Part shown: piece by piece, positions 3,358 through 63,385 of the stretch
How positions within the stretch are numbered: position 1 is the stretch's first letter
Layout of the letters: the number at the start of each line of letters is the position of its first letter
Source of the DNA: Clostridia bacterium
GTDB taxonomy: Bacteria > Bacillota > Clostridia > UMGS1883 > UMGS1540
NCBI GenBank assembly: GCA_045535515.1
Contig: JAZSLT010000016.1
Coordinates: forward strand, 11,598-75,597
Length of the DNA: 64,000 nucleotides
Direction of reading: 5' to 3'
Made by a program: the position numbers and the translations under genes
Notes under the pieces: generated by a model
What the model was told of the DNA's origin: nothing
The model's input: the letters and a program-made list of their open reading frames with translations, nothing else
The model's database searches: none

Positions 3358-4242
3358 ATGCAGTACTACGCACCGGATTATTATACGGCATTTTCCTGCC
3401 TTGGAAGTGCGTGCCGGCACACCTGCTGTCGCGGCTGGGAAATTGACATAGATGCCGAAACCTACGCGCGCTACCAAAAGGAAGAGGGCGCGTTTGGTGC
3501 ACGCCTTCGCGCCGCCATAATGAAAGATGAGAGCGGCGCACATTTTCGCCTGGGAGAGGACGAGCGGTGTCCCTTTTTAAGTCGTGATAATCTGTGCGAC
3601 ATTATCATAGAGCTTGGCGAGGAGGCGCTTTGCGCTATTTGTACCGACCATCCGCGCTACCGCAATTTCTTTGAAAACCGCACGGAAATTGGCCTCGGCC
3701 TTGCCTGTGAGGCGGCGTGCGGGCTGATTTTGTCGGGCAAAACAAAACCTGAAATGCGTTCACTTGGCGGAGAGGGGAACGGTACCTGTACGCCGGAGGA
3801 ACAGCTTTTTTTCGCGCTCAGGGCGGAAATTCTCGAGGTCATTTTTGCGGCTGATACGGCGGAGGAGGCTATGGAAACCTTGGCGGCGCGCTTTTCGCTT
3901 TGCGAGCCGGAGCTGGATTGGGCGGCCTTTTACGGCGGTTTAGAAATCCTCCATGCTTCTTGGGCGGATAAGGTGAAGACTCTTTCCGAAAAAAGGGAAC
4001 AGGCGCCGATTTCAGACCTTCCGAAAAAACAGCTTATGGCCTATTTCGTTTATCGCCATCTGGCAGACGGACGGGAGGATGGCCGCTATGTGCCCCGCAT
4101 TTCGTTTGCCCTGCATGCCACGAAAATCATAAGCCGCCTTTCTTCATCCGATGCGGAATTTTTGGATACGGCGCGCCGGTATTCGGAGGAAGTGGAATAT
4201 GCGGCCGAAAATATGGAGCGGGTGCTTTCCGTTTTGGAATAA
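3358..4242 (+). CDS. YkgJ/FliB-like cysteine-cluster protein (flagellin lysine-N-methylase family)
   Basis: N-terminal FSCLGSACRHTCCRGWEIDIDAETYARY matches the Cx4Cx3CC-GW-I signature I recall for FliB/YkgJ proteins; 294 aa. Confidence 0.55.
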   Translation: MQYYAPDYYTAFSCLGSACRHTCCRGWEIDIDAETYARYQKEEGAFGARLRAAIMKDESGAHFRLGEDERCPFLSRDNLCDIIIELGEEALCAICTDHPRYRNFFENRTEIGLGLACEAACGLILSGKTKPEMRSLGGEGNGTCTPEEQLFFALRAEILEVIFAADTAEEAMETLAARFSLCEPELDWAAFYGGLEILHASWADKVKTLSEKREQAPISDLPKKQLMAYFVYRHLADGREDGRYVPRISFALHATKIISRLSSSDAEFLDTARRYSEEVEYAAENMERVLSVLE

Positions 4243-20964: not shown

Positions 20965-20993
20965 TTGAAAAAATACACATATTGCGGTATAAT
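20965..20993 (+). promoter_or_regulatory. sigma-A promoter reading into hairpin-array element A
   Basis: TTGAAA (20965-70), 17 nt, TATAAT (20988-93). Confidence 0.55.
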
Positions 20994-21010: not shown

Positions 21011-21160
21011 AAAATCGTCGATATGAATCCTTGCCAGAATTCTCGATATGTCGCTAATGCGACGAGAATTCATATCATATCGAGTTCGACCAAAGGAAAA
21101 ACATATCGATTTTGCGACAGCAAAAATATTGAGCAAACGAAGGGTGCATATCGACATAGT
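21011..21160 (+). repeat. hairpin-array element copy A (TCGATATG/CATATCGA motifs interleaved with short hairpins); candidate structured RNA or 5' leader
   Basis: Two forward TCGATATG units (21018, 21043), each followed by a short stem-loop, then three reverse CATATCGA-type units. Same architecture as the elements at 33.4-33.8 kb and 36.5 kb. Confidence 0.6.
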
Positions 21161-33334: not shown

Positions 33335-33346
33335 ACGCGCTTTCGT

Positions 33347-33375
33347 TTGACTATTTTTCGTATGTATGCTATAAT
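33347..33375 (+). promoter_or_regulatory. sigma-A promoter reading into hairpin-array element B
   Basis: TTGACT (33347-52), 17 nt, TATAAT (33370-75). An 11-bp perfect hairpin starts 1 nt later. Confidence 0.6.
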
Positions 33376-33840
33376 GAATTTAATTGCAAAGCAATTAAAT
33401 TCAGCGATATAAATTCCTTACGGAATTTGCGATATGTACTTCGTACGCGATATATCTTCGATGCGATATGTCCCTTCGGGACGAGAAATAGGAATTTATA
33501 TCATATCGCAACGGAATGAAATGGAGTTATATCGCATTTGAACGGAGAGAAAATATATCGCACGAGCGTGAGCGAGTATATCGCCAAAAAGTTGGCATCT
33601 AAATTGTGCACGAATTCTATAATGATTTCATCTTTGATGAAATCAGCGATATAAATCTCTTGCGAGATTTTCGATATGTCACAAGTGACCCGATATGTGC
33701 TAACGCACTCGATATGTTGCCCACAGGCAACGAGATTTATATCATATCGAGTTTTGAGCGAAGCGAAAAACATATCGATTTTACGAAAGTAAAAATATCG
33801 AGCAATCGTAGATTGCATATCGACAAAACAGGCTGCATCT
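33376..33840 (+). repeat. hairpin-array element copies B1 and B2 (tandem, about 242-bp period); candidate structured RNA or long 5' leader of czcD
   Basis: B1 (about 33376-33600) uses GCGATAT(G)/ATATCGC motifs. B2 (about 33640-33840) uses TCGATATG/CATATCGA. Both open with (a)TCAGCGATATAAA plus a hairpin and contain ATATCATATCG at mid-element. Confidence 0.6.
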
Positions 33841-33891
33841 TTTCTATCACCTAATTCTATACCGGAACAAATGACCGGGAGGAGGGTTTTT

Positions 33892-34785
33892 ATGCAATCC
33901 GATAAAAAAATACGCGCGGCGTTCTTTTTAAATCTCATGTTTTCTATTATAGAATGTGTGGGTGGCCTTTGGACAGGAAGTGTGGCCATTCTTTCCGATG
34001 CCCTGCATGATTTTGGGGACAGTATCAGCATTGGCATTTCCTACTTTCTGGAAAAGACGAGCCAAAAGGAGCCGGATAATCAGCACACCTACGGATACAG
34101 GCGGTACAGCGTGTTGGGCAGCGTGATTACCACGGTAATTTTACTCTTTGGCTCGCTGGCGGTATTGTATCATGCCGTACCGAGAATTTTTCGTCCTGTG
34201 CCGGTAAACTACGACGGTGTCCTGGCGTTGGCGGTAATGGGCGTGCTTATCAATTTTTTGGCCGCCTATTTTACTAAAGAGAAGGACTCCTTAAACCAAA
34301 GAGCCGTCAATCTCCACATGCTGGAGGATGTTCTGGGCTGGCTGGCCGTTTTGGTCGGGGCCGTTTGTATGAAAATCTGGGATGCGCCCTGGATAGACCC
34401 GCTTTTATCGGCGGGTGTGGCCGTCTTTATTTTCGTGCATGCCGCGAAAACCTTAAAAAGTGCCATAGATATCTTCCTCGAAAAAACGCCGGCCAATATA
34501 AGCGCGGCCAAAATCCGGGAAATTGCTCTCGGGGTAGACGGCGTTTTGGATGCGCACCATATCCACATCCGCACGCTGGACGGGTATCTGCATTATGCCA
34601 CTCTGCATGTGGTGACGGATGCGGCGCCGAAAGAAATAAAGCACAGAATCAAGGAGGCGCTCTCTGCATGCGGCATCTCCCACACGACCATCGAGATAGA
34701 AACGAGCGAGGAAGGGTGCGACGATGTTTTCTGTAAAACCGACACTTCCCGACCGCATCACGAACACCACCACCATCATCACTAA
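33892..34785 (+). CDS. czcD: cation diffusion facilitator family transporter (CzcD-like) with His-rich C-terminus
   Basis: 6-TM CDF fold, HDxxD-type motifs (LHDFGDS) and C-terminal HHEHHHHHH. ATG at 33892 lies 8 nt after GGAGG. Confidence 0.8.
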   Translation: MQSDKKIRAAFFLNLMFSIIECVGGLWTGSVAILSDALHDFGDSISIGISYFLEKTSQKEPDNQHTYGYRRYSVLGSVITTVILLFGSLAVLYHAVPRIFRPVPVNYDGVLALAVMGVLINFLAAYFTKEKDSLNQRAVNLHMLEDVLGWLAVLVGAVCMKIWDAPWIDPLLSAGVAVFIFVHAAKTLKSAIDIFLEKTPANISAAKIREIALGVDGVLDAHHIHIRTLDGYLHYATLHVVTDAAPKEIKHRIKEALSACGISHTTIEIETSEEGCDDVFCKTDTSRPHHEHHHHHH

Positions 34786-34800
34786 GGAGCAGGGAAGAGC

Positions 34801-36420: not shown

Positions 36421-36463
36421 CGGAAAAGAGACATTTTTCTTTGACGAAAAATGTCTCTTTTCT
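36421..36463 (+). terminator. intrinsic terminator after the GH32-like gene
   Basis: AAAGAGACATTTTT...AAAAATGTCTCTTT stem followed by a T-run. Confidence 0.7.
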
Positions 36464-36489
36464 GGCTTTCGGCTACATAATAGATGCAA

Positions 36490-36675
36490 GTTATTTTTTC
36501 GATATGCAATCTTCGATTGCTCGATATTTTTGTTATCACAAAATCGATATAATCTCACTTCGTTCGATTGAGATATGATATAAATCTCGTTGCCGTAAGG
36601 CAACATATCGTGTGCACCAGCACATATCGAGTTAATTTTAACATATCGAAAATCTCGACAGAGATTTATATCGAT
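36490..36675 (+). repeat. hairpin-array element copy C (stand-alone, between two terminators)
   Basis: TCGATATG at 36498, then TCGATAT x2 with hairpins, then ATATCG(A) x4 in the opposite orientation. Confidence 0.55.
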
Positions 36676-36712
36676 GAAAAAACGACTTGTCGGAAAACAA
36701 GTCGTTTTTTCT
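36676..36712. terminator. bidirectional terminator downstream of tRNA-Leu
   Basis: ACGACTTGT...ACAAGTCGT stem flanked by an A-run and a T-run. Confidence 0.7.
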
Positions 36713-36798
36713 GGTGCTCGAGACCGGAATCGAACCGGTACGGGATTGCTCCCACGGGATTTTAAGTCCCGGGCGTCTGCCAGTTCCGCCACTCGAGC
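36712..36798 (-). tRNA. tRNA-Leu (anticodon UAA), type II with long variable arm
   Basis: Reverse complement folds as GCTCGAG acceptor, anticodon stem CGGGA/TCCCG with loop CTTAAAA, long variable arm, T-loop TTCGATT and 3' CCA. Confidence 0.85.
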
Positions 36799-63183: not shown

Positions 63184-63227
63184 GAAACAGAACGATTTAG
63201 ATGATATTCTTGATCGTTCTGTTTTTT
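63184..63227 (+). terminator. intrinsic terminator after tRNA-Lys
   Basis: AACAGAACGAT...ATCGTTCTGTT 11-bp stem followed by a T-run. Confidence 0.7.
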
Positions 63228-63251
63228 ATATAAAGTATGTTTTTAAAACGC

Positions 63252-63385
63252 TTGAAATGTTTATAAAATTATGATATAATTATTATGCTACATACTATAC
63301 TTATAATGGTGTAGGTATATTTTTTTATCGCAAAGTGTACGCTATATAGGTAAAAGCGTACACTCTGACACAAACTTTGCGATAA
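63252..63385 (+). promoter_or_regulatory. extended -10 promoter followed by nested palindrome (candidate operator)
   Basis: TTGAAA, 17 nt, then TGaTATAAT (63252-63280). After that TTATCGCAAAGT (63325-36) and its complement ACTTTGCGATAA (63374-85) enclose GTGTACGC (63336-43) and GCGTACAC (63356-63). Confidence 0.5.

What the first reader, a model, noticed from the sequence alone, without database searches (positions are those of the whole stretch)
33347..33840. Promoter-driven tandem pair of hairpin-array elements (B1/B2) upstream of czcD: candidate novel structured RNA or leader family
Between ylbJ and czcD lie about 490 bp with no plausible ORF and a striking grammar.
- A consensus sigma-A promoter (TTGACT-17-TATAAT) is followed within 1 nt by an 11-bp perfect hairpin.
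- Two roughly 240-bp units then follow in tandem. Each consists of 4-5 copies of a 7-8 nt motif (GCGATAT(G) in B1, TCGATATG in B2), each followed by a short perfect stem-loop of variable sequence.
- A central ATATCATATCG(A/C) follows, and then 3-4 copies of the reverse-complement motif (ATATCGC / CATATCGA), again separated by small hairpins.
- Many hairpin loops are canonical stable RNA tetraloops: C(UUCG)G in tcccttcgggac, tacttcgta and caatcttcgattg; GNRA in acgaaagt and ccgtaagg.

This bias toward tetraloops argues that the structure matters at the RNA level. The forward motifs in the 5' half can pair with the reverse motifs in the 3' half, so an elaborate multi-branch fold, or a cruciform in DNA, is possible. 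The same architecture recurs at 21.0 kb and 36.5 kb, and the heptamer is essentially absent from the other 62 kb. I cannot match it to any element family I know; it is not CRISPR, a T-box, or a known riboswitch or REP element. Candidate functions are:
- a long cis-regulatory 5' leader for czcD;
- an independent protein-sponge ncRNA, with the single-stranded AUAUCGA repeats between hairpins as a binding code;
- an operator or centromere-like array of DNA sites.
Basis: seen in the sequence. Interest (0 to 1): 0.85.

Follow-up and report, generated by a model that had tools for sequence, protein, structure and literature searches.

The report
Hairpin-ladder RNA element, Avd-like partner
The two tandem units upstream of czcD are inserted copies of a widespread, highly structured repeat element of gut and rumen Clostridia, a relative of the orphan "Gut-1" RNA motif; their short repeated linker motif matches, class by class, a small Avd-like four-helix-bundle protein encoded directly behind other copies elsewhere, which points to an undescribed RNA-protein recognition system rather than a czcD-specific leader.

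Summary
The window carries four copies: B1 and B2 at 33.4-33.8 kb, A at 21.0 kb, and C at 36.5 kb on the minus strand.

**Architecture.** Each copy is a 5' hairpin, then about 4 CGAUAU linkers separated by variable hairpins, a centre X'-AUAUC-AUAUCG, and 4 AUAUCG linkers separated by hairpins.

**Family.**
- It is not unknown. It is a sister of Rfam Gut-1 (RF01706), whose model covers only the 5' half and uses UGAAAU or UGAUAU linkers.
- At least 114 copies occur in Oscillospirales-type MAGs, with heavy stem covariation and G·U strand asymmetry.
- Most sit just after a co-directional gene or tRNA.

**Folds.** Two mutually exclusive, equally conserved folds exist: a ladder of four-way junctions with linkers paired, and a two-domain form with linkers exposed.

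**New result.** 65 of 71 loci chosen only for a PF05635/TIGR02436 (Avd-like, pentameric) protein carry such an array directly upstream, and the linker motif tracks the protein clade.

**Window copies.** They are orphan insertions. A relative with 82%-identical YlbJ has an empty ylbJ-czcD site. No IVP gene lies in the window.

**Best reading.** This is a structured RNA recognised through its linkers by the Avd-like protein. It is probably mobile, and its effect on czcD is unknown.

The parts
33347..33375 (+). Sigma-70-type promoter TTGACT-17-TATAAT. This is the native czcD promoter; B1 starts directly after its -10 hexamer.
   Evidence: The scan gives 11 of 12 consensus positions. The orthologous promoter TTGACT-17-TATACT directly precedes czcD in L216, which lacks the elements.
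33376..33402 (+). B1 5' hairpin: 12 bp, closing G-C pair, followed by A and then K-CGAUAU.
   Evidence: RNAfold predicts it. A 5' hairpin is present in all 61 canonical family members, with 61 different sequences and a mean of 10.8 bp. The C-A that follows is conserved in 96 and 90 of 114 copies.
33404..33584 (+). B1 core. F linkers (G)CGAUAU lie at 33405, 33430, 33448 and 33464 with hairpins between them. The centre GGAAUUUAUAUC-AUAUCG lies at 33491-33508. R linkers AUAUCG(C) lie at 33503, 33529, 33555 and 33578 with hairpins between them.
   Evidence: The ladder fold equals the MFE at -60.0 kcal/mol.
33585..33623 (+). B1 3' tail: CAAAAAG..GGCAUCUAAAU..AAUUC, then a TATAAT copy at 33618-33623.
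   Evidence: A tail motif GCATCTAAA(T/C) recurs after a subfamily of elements in other genomes. TATAAT, TATAAT and TATACC flank B1 and B2.
33624..33644 (+). B2 5' hairpin: GAUUUCAUC-UUU-GAUGAAAUC.
   Evidence: RNAfold predicts it. Nearly the same hairpin, preceded by TATAAT, occurs in L018, L067, L104 and L105.
33646..33823 (+). B2 core. F linkers lie at 33647, 33672, 33691 and 33710. The centre GAGAUUUAUAUC-AUAUCG lies at 33732-33749. R linkers AUAUCG(A) lie at 33744, 33772, 33795 and 33817.
   Evidence: The ladder of consecutive four-way junctions equals the MFE at -58.3 kcal/mol.
33824..33863 (+). B2 3' tail with GCAUCU, then TATACC at 33858-33863. TATACC is the third copy of the duplicated -10-like hexamer. 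Beyond it the sequence is again collinear with the empty site of L216, running into the czcD SD and ATG at 33892.
   Evidence: Alignment of the three junctions with the L216 empty site. czcD is a Cation_efflux protein (E = 1.7e-44).
20965..20993 (+). Promoter-like TTGAAA-17-TATAAT upstream of copy A.
   Evidence: Read directly from the sequence.
21017..21155 (+). Copy A: shortened and partly degenerate. It has 2 F linkers (21019, 21044), the centre GAGAAUUCAUAUC-AUAUCG (21064-21082) and 4 R linkers, one of them AUAUUG. It has no clear 5' hairpin.
36500..36711 (-). Copy C: a canonical 4+4 element on the minus strand. Its 5' hairpin is 36711-36676, F0 is 36673-36668, and the last R ends at 36500.
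   Evidence: It closely resembles B2 and the L025, L028 and L103 type copies.
36424..36465 (-). Second copy of the 8-nt direct repeat CCAGAAAA (36465-36458), followed by an intrinsic-terminator hairpin. The first copy (36714-36707) overlaps the 3' end of the tRNA gene at 36715-36798.
   Evidence: The direct repeat was found by a longest-common-substring test. L025 shows the same logic: CTCACCA is duplicated and the native terminator follows the second copy.

Best explanation
**What the units are.** B1, B2, A and C are copies of a dispersed, roughly 180-215-nt structured RNA element.
- The family spans Oscillospirales-type Clostridia of gut and rumen. It is the CGAUAU-linker branch of the superfamily whose 5' half Rfam calls Gut-1.
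- Each copy has a 5' hairpin, about four forward linkers (K-CGAUAU-R) and four to five reverse linkers (Y-AUAUCG-M). Short hairpins of free sequence separate the linkers.

**Two exclusive folds (shown).**
- In the 'ladder', each forward linker pairs with a reverse linker. This gives a rod of 6-8-bp helices interrupted by perfect four-way junctions.
- In the 'two-domain' form, F0 plus the X box pairs with the central X'-AUAUC over 12 bp. The other linkers are left single-stranded between hairpins.

**Partner protein.**
- Shown: master copies lie directly upstream of a roughly 115-aa PF05635/TIGR02436 four-helix-bundle protein. This protein is a homologue of the pentameric, RNA-binding DGR protein Avd. 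The linker sequence changes with the protein clade.
- Inferred: the protein, probably as a pentamer, reads the 4-5 repeated linkers displayed between hairpins. The complementary forward linkers act as a built-in competitor or switch. Binding next to the SD autoregulates the protein's own gene.
- Inferred: orphan copies such as those in the window are further binding or processing sites on other transcripts.

**Insertion.**
- Shown: the window copies arrived by insertion. B1 and B2 sit exactly behind the -10 box of the czcD promoter. Copy C sits between a tRNA and its terminator.
- Inferred: czcD now carries a roughly 490-nt structured 5' UTR. Its consequence (stability, processing or translation) is not known.
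For: **Family and relation to Gut-1**
About 114 are true elements, all in Clostridia MAGs, against about 5 chance hits.
- B1 hits Gut-1 at E = 5e-5.
- A bona fide Gut-1 hit has the same full architecture with GUGAUAU and AUAUCAC linkers. So do the flanks of the published seed alignment.

**Structure**
- RNAalifold on 54 copies recovers the ladder and hairpins. 24 of 44 pairs show compensatory changes.
- Every hairpin module is present in nearly all copies, with 50-61 distinct sequences among 61.
- Both X:X'a and F0X:X'b-AUAUC are 99% paired with covariation. None of 500 shuffles reach the observed value, and slid controls give 29-75% paired.
- The ladder averages -61.2 kcal/mol and the two-domain form -55.2 kcal/mol over 62 copies.

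**RNA and strand**
- G·U pairs in 3'-half stems number 62 on the plus strand versus 15 on the minus strand. In 5' hairpins the counts are 47 versus 24. In the AUUUCA class they are 13 versus 3.
- The upstream gene is co-directional in 86 cases versus 20.
- A -10 box sits 0-1 nt before the 5' hairpin in B1, B2, L018 and L136.
- The SD of the protein gene lies 13-19 nt after the last linker.
- Linker spacing varies from 20 to 28 nt.

**Protein link**
- 15 of 16 IVP genes in the element-selected loci lie directly behind an element.
- 65 of 71 protein-selected loci have an array directly upstream.
- Protein clusters match linker classes: AUAUCG in 24 of 25, AUUUCA in 32, plus AUAUCA, UUUAGC, ACUUCA and AAAUCAU.
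- The protein scores 78 bits on PF05635 and 86.7 bits on TIGR02436. It matches PDB 2RLD, which has 5 chains.
- Avd is a pentamer that binds an RNA stem-loop with all five protomers (PMC10053308).
- R-only arrays of 4-5 linkers precede some IVP genes.
- Bacteroidaceae IVP genes are bracketed by subfamily-specific repeat arrays and their complements.

**Insertion**
- An empty ylbJ-czcD site exists in L216.
- Flanking direct repeats occur at copy C and in L025, L074 and L124. Repeats of 10 nt or more occur in 4 of 106 copies versus 0.6% of controls.
Against: - No expression data exist for any copy.
- No IVP gene lies in the 64-kb window. Whether this genome has a CGAUAU-class IVP could not be checked.
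- Protein binding rests on co-variation and on homology to Avd. It was not tested.
- Linker pairing is not obligatory.
  - Minimal copies lack F1-F3 (L043, L054, L075, L080, L088, L120).
  - R-only arrays exist.
  - L104 combines U-type forward with C-type reverse flanks.
  - The position-specific covariation of linker flanks is no better than subfamily-level correlation.
- The six core linker bases never vary within the family. They therefore give no covariation evidence.
- Many 5' hairpins look like intrinsic terminators. In part of the AUUUCA class a promoter-like TTGAAA-17-TATAAT lies between the element and the IVP gene. Transcription of those elements would therefore need read-through.
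- 5'-half stems show no G·U asymmetry.
- The reverse complement of an element has a similar grammar.
Confidence: 0.55

Rival explanations
1. The element is a selfish, MITE-like repeat. The unit [array + PF05635 gene] is the autonomous element, the orphan arrays are non-autonomous copies, and the protein serves mobility. For example, it could act as an Avd-like cofactor of a host reverse transcriptase, or as a nucleic-acid chaperone. On this reading the structure reflects the transposition intermediate (RNA or single-stranded DNA) rather than any host function. This overlaps with the best explanation: both have the same partner and differ in purpose.
For: - There is a presence/absence difference between close relatives at ylbJ-czcD.
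- Flanking direct repeats of variable length (6-18 nt) occur at several copies.
- Tandem duplications exist: B1/B2, L030, L115, and Gut-1 seeds spaced 240 nt apart.
- There are 4 copies in 64 kb.
- IVP modules sit in unrelated neighbourhoods with no conserved neighbour gene.
- Copies lie in 'safe' sites directly after stop codons or tRNAs.
- Avd is an obligatory RT cofactor.
- The arrangement parallels REPIN-RAYT, with a single-copy protein gene and cognate dispersed structured repeats.
Against: - No reverse transcriptase, transposase or integrase is linked to the modules.
- A general target-site duplication at a fixed boundary was not detectable.
- Copies within a genome are old and divergent rather than near-identical (B1 versus B2).
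- Subfamily-specific hairpins are conserved across many genomes, and a copy follows tRNA-Leu in both the window and L028. This looks like purifying selection on resident copies.
- Only 3 true copies occur among 2.9 million viral contigs.
Confidence: 0.3
2. The element acts on single-stranded or double-stranded DNA. The arrays would be binding sites for the four-helix-bundle protein or another factor. They would act as operators overlapping promoters, or as single-strand DNA structures used in replication or transposition, as with REP/RAYT or IS200/IS605 ends.
For: - Forward and reverse motifs are the same duplex site in opposite orientation. This explains their concerted change without RNA pairing.
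- In some AUUUCA-class loci the last linker abuts a -35 box.
- Many elements follow terminator-like hairpins, so transcription is not assured.
- GAA triloops closed by C-G are also very stable in DNA (own knowledge).
- The reverse complement has a similar grammar.
Against: - Spacers between sites are always self-complementary, with compensatory changes. Duplex binding does not require this.
- Spacing is not phase-locked.
- G·U is strand-asymmetric in 3'-half stems.
- Tandem G·A plus GNRA motifs are present.
- The -10 box sits immediately before the 5' hairpin, and the SD immediately after the last linker, in the CGAUAU class.
- The homologue Avd binds structured RNA.
Confidence: 0.1
3. B1 and B2 form a dedicated cis-regulatory leader of czcD, a riboswitch or attenuator responding to metal or another signal.
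For: - The two units lie between the czcD promoter and its SD, so they must be part of the czcD 5' UTR if transcription proceeds.
- The element has two exclusive conserved folds, as switches do.
- One other copy (L023) also precedes a cation-efflux-like gene.
Against: - The family is found next to unrelated genes and mostly downstream of genes or tRNAs.
- The orthologous czcD of a close relative has the same promoter and SD without the element.
- No terminator or SD-sequestering helix is linked to either fold at czcD.
- No Rfam riboswitch matches.
Confidence: 0.03

Closest known systems
Gut-1 RNA motif (Rfam RF01706; Weinberg et al. 2010, PMC2864571)
   Same: - The grammar is the same: a 5' hairpin, an F0 box plus hairpin, then linker-hairpin-linker-hairpin, with UNCG-like loops.
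- The habitat is the same (gut metagenomes), as is the tendency to form tandem copies at a spacing of about 240 nt.
- True Gut-1 hits and the published seed flanks also carry the unannotated 3' half with the complementary linkers.
- AUUUCA-class arrays, which are canonical Gut-1, precede PF05635 genes as well.
   Different: - The linker is CGAUAU rather than UGAAAU or UGAUAU.
- The window copies score 34.6 bits against a gathering score of 50.
- The Rfam model and the paper describe only three hairpins (77 nt), give no function, and classify it as not cis-regulatory.
- In the papers and the supplementary files I could search (one search covered the first 200 of 438 supplementary files), I found no mention of the reverse-linker half, the ladder and two-domain alternative, the protein association or the genomic placement.
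DGR accessory protein Avd with its Sp RNA stem-loop
   Same: - The protein partner is homologous. PF05635 resembles Avd, and Avd is a pentameric four-helix-bundle barrel.
- Avd binds a structured RNA with all five protomers through repeated contacts with flipped-out bases.
   Different: - No reverse transcriptase, template repeat or variable repeat lies next to these genes.
- The RNA here is an array of repeated linkers, not a single 11-bp stem-loop.
- Binding here is inferred, not shown.
REP/REPIN elements with their RAYT gene
   Same: - A single-copy protein gene is flanked by its cognate repeat, and many orphan structured copies are dispersed in intergenic regions, typically at the 3' ends of genes.
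- The repeat sequence co-varies with the protein clade (own knowledge of the REPIN-RAYT literature).
   Different: - REPs are single 20-40-nt imperfect palindromes with a conserved GTAG head, and they act as single-stranded DNA substrates of an HUH transposase.
- Here the unit is about 200 nt with 8 or so hairpins and 6-nt linkers.
- The protein has no known catalytic motif, and the evidence favours RNA.
TRAP-(G/U)AG repeats and Csr/Rsm sponge RNAs
   Same: A homo-oligomeric protein reads a short motif repeated once per subunit along an RNA. Binding near an SD controls translation (own knowledge). This is a functional analogy for the proposed mechanism.
   Different: - The proteins are unrelated.
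- The spacers here are hairpins.
- The complementary forward array has no counterpart.
- Binding is untested.
23S rRNA intervening sequences carrying a PF05635 ORF
   Same: - The protein family is the same.
- In Bacteroidaceae the gene is bracketed by an inverted pair of repeat arrays that would form a long stem around the ORF, as in an IVS.
   Different: - The window elements are not in rRNA.
- Both arrays lie upstream of the gene in Clostridia.
- Orphan copies lack the ORF.

Membership tests
Gut-1 RNA (RF01706) | Covariance-model score at or above the curated gathering score (50 bits). | tested here: not met
   B1 scores 34.6 bits (E = 5e-5), and there is no hit at the gathering threshold anywhere in the window. 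A different element in L042 scores 57.2 bits.
Gut-1 RNA (RF01706) | Three short covarying hairpins separated by a conserved 6-7-nt linker, preceded by an F0 box plus hairpin. | tested here: met
   The order of parts is the same in the cmscan alignment and in the published consensus line. The linker is CGAUAU instead of UGAAAU or UGAUAU.
Gut-1 RNA (RF01706) | Same full-length context in true members, which would indicate homology of the whole element. | tested here: met
   The L042 Gut-1 hit and the seed sequences continue into X'-AAUAUCAC plus hairpin and AUAUCAC arrays.
CRISPR array | Direct repeats of about 23-50 nt, unique non-palindromic spacers, and adjacent cas genes or a leader. | tested here: not met
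   The repeats are 6-8 nt and occur in both orientations, and the spacers are hairpins. Only chance-level CRISPR-DR hits appear (E of 1 or more).
Riboswitch, T-box or other known cis-regulatory leader | A match to a curated aptamer or leader model, and a constant association with one gene class. | tested here: not met
   No Rfam family reaches its threshold. Neighbouring genes are diverse, and the element is mostly 3' of genes.
REP/BIME (RAYT-associated) | A single imperfect palindrome with a conserved GTAG-type head, and a RAYT (HUH) gene flanked by REPs. | tested here: not met
   The architecture differs. The associated gene is PF05635, not a transposase.
MITE or other non-autonomous transposon | Terminal inverted repeats, a target-site duplication of fixed length, and near-identical copies within a genome. 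| tested here: inconclusive
   - An empty site exists in a relative.
- Direct repeats of 6-18 nt flank some copies.
- No general duplication appears at a fixed boundary.
- Copies within the window are divergent.
Diversity-generating retroelement | A reverse transcriptase gene with a template/variable repeat pair next to the Avd-like gene. | tested here: not met
   No RT-sized conserved neighbour lies in 16 long IVP loci. None lies next to the window copies.
PF05635/TIGR02436-associated repeat array (proposed here, not a curated family) | An array of 4-5 copies of a clade-specific short motif directly upstream of, or bracketing, a PF05635 gene. | tested here: not met
   The window copies are orphans: tblastn with the IVP protein finds no homologue in the window. 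The association holds for the family: 15 of 16 and 65 of 71 loci.

The most novel reading that the evidence does not exclude
PF05635/TIGR02436 proteins ('23S rRNA intervening-sequence proteins', stand-alone Avd homologues) would be sequence-programmable pentameric RNA-binding proteins.
- Each clade would read its own 6-8-nt linker, displayed 4-5 times between hairpins (Clostridia) or as contiguous heptamers (Bacteroidaceae).
- Together with its array, the protein would form a previously unrecognised kind of RNA-based mobile module that seeds transcripts with switchable four-way-junction 'ladder' RNAs.
- The window's four copies would be targets of such a system.
Probability: 0.3. Interest if true: 0.9.

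Novelty: new variant of a known kind. Interest (0 to 1): 0.72.

Why it matters
- **A full anatomy for an orphan motif.** Gut-1 has been a 77-nt motif of unknown function since 2010. This work shows it is half of a roughly 200-nt element with two exclusive conserved folds. One fold is an unusual rod of consecutive perfect four-way junctions.
- **A testable ligand for a large uncharacterised protein family.**
  - PF05635/TIGR02436 is known only as an ORF inside 23S rRNA intervening sequences and as the DGR cofactor Avd.
  - The proposed ligand is a clade-specific repeated RNA motif.
  - Thousands of close relatives were found for each of the two queries.
- **A possible programmable recognition code.** The motif-to-clade correspondence suggests a natural RNA-protein recognition code.
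- **Relevance to annotation.** The elements are frequent in dominant gut and rumen Clostridia. They insert into 5' UTRs (czcD here), between tRNAs and their terminators, and after stop codons. They therefore probably affect transcript fate and should be annotated.

Tried and rejected
- **Rfam at gathering thresholds.** The window gave only two tRNAs. Eighteen related loci gave only one separate Gut-1 hit.
- **Viral contigs.** Three true copies among 15 hits, so the element is not phage-borne.
- **Exact-protein look-ups.** YlbJ and CzcD of the window, and P0001, are not on record.
- **Register of forward:reverse pairing.** I tried to prove the nested register from the bases flanking each linker. 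The result is inconclusive. The G-C versus U-A correlation is mostly subfamily-wide, heterogeneous copies fit the nested register only 2-4 times out of 4, and L104 is chimeric.
- **General target-site duplication.** The test at the base of the 5' hairpin gave no excess over controls. Only a longest-common-substring test showed an excess of long flanking repeats. Two of the longest are tandem duplications of whole units.
- **Idea that the 5' hairpin is always target-derived.** Only L124 fits. L025 and copy C show that the hairpin belongs to the inserted unit.
- **Helical phasing of linkers.** None was found.
- **Other motif clusters in the window.** Those at 996-1049 and 63202-63277 are not elements.
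- **Conserved neighbour genes of the IVP modules, especially a reverse transcriptase.** None was found.
- **3' tail GCAUCUAAAU as a -35 box.** The spacing to TATAAT is about 20 nt, so it is not convincing. The scanner reports only the native czcD promoter as strong.
- **Covariance model.** I did not build one.
- **The ~110-nt GC-rich insert of L003 and L030.** It has no Rfam match.
Full report
**1. What is in the window**

- A near-consensus promoter (TTGACT-17-TATAAT, 33347-33375, 11 of 12 positions) is followed at once by a 12-bp hairpin (33376-33402).
- Two units follow with a 242-nt period.
- Each unit has four forward linkers (CGATAT) with a short hairpin after each.
- The centre repeats the 3' strand of the first hairpin and continues as ATATC-ATATCG.
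- Three further ATATCG linkers then alternate with hairpins.

The 12-mer TATATCATATCG occurs four times in the window against 0.16 expected. CGATATG occurs 26 times against 8 expected, and the excess lies entirely in four elements. The elements are B1, B2, A at 21.0 kb (shortened and partly degenerate) and C at 36.5 kb. C lies on the minus strand, directly behind a tRNA gene.

Each copy folds far better than shuffled sequence, with z from -3.1 to -7.9. The flanking genes are a YlbJ-like membrane protein (weak Gate domain) and a CDF cation-efflux protein (czcD-like, E = 1.7e-44). Small corrections on strand and loop types are given in the observation check.

**2. It is a large family, and it has a known relative**

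A scan of one genome per species (185,579 genomes) used the pattern ATATCATATC-N15-30-ATATCG-N12-24-ATATCG.
I expected about 14 chance matches.
- Inspection shows 4-5 chance hits in coding DNA and about 114 true elements.
- All are from Clostridia MAGs of gut and rumen: Oscillospiraceae, Acutalibacteraceae, Ruminococcus, Faecousia and others.
- The same pattern finds only three true copies in 2.9 million viral contigs.

Rfam gives no hit at curated thresholds. In E-value mode the 5' half of B1 matches Gut-1 (RF01706) at 34.6 bits against a gathering score of 50, with E = 5e-5. The aligned parts are F0 box, hairpin, linker, hairpin, linker, hairpin, linker.

One related locus (L042) holds a bona fide Gut-1 hit at 57 bits. 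Read in full, it has the same complete architecture with linkers GUGAUAU and AUAUCAC. The published seed alignment with flanks shows the same unannotated 3' half, and shows tandem copies 240 nt apart (Weinberg et al. 2010, PMC2864571, supplementary file). That paper says only that Gut-1 occurs in human-gut sequences and is probably a non-coding RNA.

The window elements are therefore a CGAUAU-linker sister family of Gut-1. The Rfam model covers only three hairpins of the 5' half.

**3. Anatomy and conservation**

Among the roughly 114 copies:
- The commonest form has 4 forward and 4 reverse linkers (57 copies).
- The number of reverse linkers is almost constant at about 4.
- Forward linkers range from 1 to 6.
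- The forward linker is K-CGAUAU-R, with 402 of 405 core matches. These were not part of the search pattern.
- The reverse linker is Y-AUAUCG-M, its exact reverse complement including the degenerate flanks.
- Every hairpin module is present in nearly all copies, with 50-61 different sequences among 61 copies.

RNAalifold on a MAFFT alignment of 54 copies independently predicts F0:R4, F1:R3 and F3:R1 plus the hairpins. 24 of 44 pairs have compensatory changes.

Loops differ between halves. The 5' half has UNRC or UUC loops. The 3' half has GAA or GNRA loops, often above tandem G·A pairs.

**4. Two exclusive, equally conserved folds**

The box X after F0 can pair in two ways:
- with the adjacent X'a, forming a local hairpin of 6 pairs. 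It is 99.7% paired, and 4 pairs show double changes.
- together with GAUAU of F0, with the central X'b-AUAUC, forming 12 pairs. It is 99.1% paired, and 6 pairs show double changes.

For both, no shuffle of 500 reaches the observed pairing or covariation score. Sliding the partner by one to three columns drops pairing to 9-75%.

The first choice allows the 'ladder'. Forward linkers pair with reverse linkers in nested order, giving consecutive perfect four-way junctions. This is the MFE of B1 and B2.

The second choice gives a closed 5' domain and leaves the reverse linkers single-stranded between hairpins. This is the MFE of copy C.

Over 62 canonical copies the ladder averages -61.2 kcal/mol and the two-domain form -55.2 kcal/mol. 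The ladder is better in 53 copies.

Linker pairing cannot be obligatory:
- Minimal copies have only F0, locked in the long hairpin, followed by the reverse array.
- Some arrays have reverse linkers only.
- One copy is chimeric (L104).
- Base-by-base covariation of the linker flanks does not go beyond subfamily correlation.

**5. RNA or DNA, and which strand**

Evidence for a single-stranded, plus-strand structure:
- G·U pairs in 3'-half stems number 62 on the plus strand versus 15 on the minus strand.
- In the 5' hairpin they number 47 versus 24.
- In the AUUUCA class they number 13 versus 3.
- Linker spacing varies from 20 to 28 nt (reverse) and 14 to 25 nt (forward). This suits hairpin spacers, not phased duplex sites.
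- The upstream gene is co-directional in 86 cases versus 20. The downstream gene shows little bias (58 versus 46). Gene-pair types are >> 44, >< 36, << 8 and <> 8.
- The distance from stop codon to F0 is usually 15-50 nt, which is just the 5' hairpin.
- Six or seven copies follow tRNA operons.
- In one subfamily a TATAAT box ends 0-1 nt before the 5' hairpin (B1, B2, L010, L018, L067, L104, L105, L119, L136).

Points against:
- 5'-half stems show no G·U asymmetry.
- Many 5' hairpins resemble terminators.
- No expression data exist.

I rate RNA as likely (about 0.8) but not shown.

**6. The protein partner**

Thirteen or so elements are followed, 15-19 nt after the last linker, by a roughly 115-aa ORF. 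In the element-selected loci, 15 of 16 homologues of this ORF lie directly behind an element (with L063 re-read on its true strand).

The protein is PF05635 (78 bits; cut-off 33.8) and TIGR02436, 'four helix bundle protein' (86.7 bits; cut-off 24). Its closest solved relative is 2RLD, an entry with five chains.
- PF05635 is the family of the ORFs in 23S rRNA intervening sequences, and it resembles the DGR protein Avd (PMC10053308).
- Avd is a pentameric barrel. All five of its protomers contact an RNA stem-loop, with flipped-out bases held in the crevices between protomers (bioRxiv 10.1101/2023.10.23.563531).

The reciprocal test used 80 metagenome loci chosen only by protein similarity.
- Of 71 loci with at least 200 nt upstream, 65 have a repeated-linker array directly upstream.
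- 55 of them also have the complementary forward linkers.
- The linker class follows the protein clade:
  - the clade at 61% identity or more to the query has AUAUCG (24 of 25);
  - the clade at 50-60% has AUUUCA, the canonical Gut-1 linker (32), with an AUAUCA subcluster (3);
  - single UUUAGC and ACUUCA cases exist;
  - a 48%-identical gene in L079 has AAAUCAU.
- Mean identity is 0.70 within classes and 0.53 between classes.
- No other gene is conserved next to these modules, and in particular no reverse transcriptase.

In Bacteroidaceae the 2RLD-type genes sit inside operons (araD-IVP-araA; aminotransferase-IVP-DAHP synthase).
- They are bracketed by inverted arrays of contiguous repeats: (TTGACAa) x4 upstream and (TGTCAAt) x4 downstream.
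- A different 14-nt repeat and its complement bracket a 74%-identical paralogue.
- The theme 'clade-specific short repeat array plus its complement next to a PF05635 gene' therefore extends beyond Clostridia.

I found no paper linking Gut-1 or such arrays to this protein family in the searchable library.

**7. The window copies are insertions**

A metagenome contig with an 82%-identical YlbJ (L216) has ylbJ and czcD separated by about 70 nt: TTGACT-17-TATACT, then SD and ATG.
- The window is collinear with it up to the -10 hexamer, and again from a TATACC copy at 33858.
- About 480 nt (B1 plus B2) lie in between, and a further TATAAT sits at the B1/B2 junction.
- A more distant relative (L217) has ylbJ followed directly by the GH32 gene. 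In the window that gene lies beyond czcD.

Copy C lies between the tRNA and what looks like its original terminator. It is flanked by the 8-nt direct repeat CCAGAAAA. L025 shows the same arrangement with CTCACCA. L074 (10 nt) and L124 (18 nt) also have flanking repeats.

Flanking repeats of 10 nt or more occur in 4 of 106 non-tandem copies, against 0.6% of mismatched controls. A test at a fixed boundary shows no general duplication.

Gain by insertion is well supported for B1/B2 and C. The mechanism is unknown.

**8. Most likely mechanism**

Shown:
- the family;
- its structure with two exclusive folds;
- its placement;
- the tight, clade-matched association with PF05635 genes;
- insertion at the window sites.

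Inferred:
- The protein, as a pentamer like Avd and 2RLD, recognises the 4-5 repeated reverse linkers (the centre AUAUC plus R1-R4). The hairpins bring these linkers close together.
- The forward linkers sequester them in the ladder, so protein binding and ladder formation compete.
- In the CGAUAU class, binding at the last linker next to the SD would autoregulate the protein.
- Orphan copies in 5' UTRs (czcD), behind stop codons and behind tRNAs would be further sites of binding, processing or protection.
- Alternatively, orphan copies are simply non-autonomous offspring of the module, as in a REPIN-RAYT-like relationship.

I give the RNA-protein partner model 0.55, a primarily selfish or mobility function 0.3 (partly overlapping), a DNA-level function 0.1, and a czcD-specific leader 0.03.

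**9. Novelty and verdict**

The element is a new variant of a known but uncharacterised kind (Gut-1). What appears to be new:
- the full architecture;
- the bistable pairing;
- the genomic behaviour;
- above all, the clade-matched link to the PF05635/TIGR02436 family, which turns two orphans (an RNA motif and a protein family) into one testable system.

Interest is 0.72.

Noticed in passing
L218-L226 (Bacteroidaceae metagenome contigs), about 60 nt before and 50-80 nt after the PF05635 gene at 1201-1578: PF05635 genes sit inside sugar and amino-acid operons and are bracketed by inverted arrays of contiguous heptamers: TTGACAa x4 upstream and TGTCAAt x4 downstream. A paralogue uses a different 14-nt repeat. 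These arrays would form a roughly 30-bp stem around the ORF, like a 23S rRNA intervening sequence but inside mRNAs.
   Followed up: partly
L003:4850-4960 and L030:1225-1335 (plus strand of the loci): Two elements carry a similar roughly 110-nt GC-rich insert (ggagcgatgggagcgc...ccgcaacagg) between the last 5'-half hairpin and the centre. It has no Rfam match and may be an extra structured domain.
   Followed up: partly
L079:6410-6520 (minus strand): A 48%-identical PF05635 gene is preceded by a reverse-only array with yet another linker (AAAUCAU x4). It lies in the same 8-kb stretch as an orphan CGAUAU-class element (3603-3805, plus strand). Several specificity classes can therefore coexist in one genome.
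   Followed up: partly
window 33585-33623 and 33824-33857; L013, L097, L103, L104, L105, L106 3' flanks: A subfamily of elements has a conserved 3' tail: CAAAA-N-(U)GCAUCUAAA(U/C)-N14-17, ending at a TATAAT-like hexamer. Its role is unclear. It could be the RNA 3' end, a weak outward promoter, or part of the inserted unit.
   Followed up: partly
L166, L179, L180, L183, L199, L204, L208 and others, the last ~55 nt before the PF05635 ATG: In many AUUUCA-class (canonical Gut-1) loci a promoter-like TTGAAA-17-TATAAT lies between the last linker and the protein gene, with the -35 box abutting the linker. The strict consensus is found in 4 of 30 loci, and more are visible by eye. This is hard to reconcile with a simple 5'-UTR model.
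   Followed up: partly
L217:3548-3608 versus window 33335-34800: In a relative with 62%-identical YlbJ, ylbJ is followed directly by the GH32 gene. czcD itself, with its promoter, is therefore absent there and may be a gained or lost cassette.
   Followed up: no
L104:2763-2973: This is a chimeric element. Its 5' half has U-type linkers (UCGAUAU) and B2-like hairpins. Its 3' half has C-type linkers (AUAUCGC) and B1-like hairpins. This suggests recombination between subfamilies.
   Followed up: no
L186 versus L194 (PF05635 gene at 2501-2848 in both): The same PF05635 gene and downstream GntR/ABC genes occur in both, but the upstream DNA differs. In L194 it is a tRNA with a terminator-like hairpin and an integrase-like ORF. 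This hints that the module lies at a recombination hotspot.
   Followed up: no
L002:2376-2458: A ZMP/ZTP riboswitch (61 bits) lies in one of the fetched loci. It is unrelated to the element.
   Followed up: no
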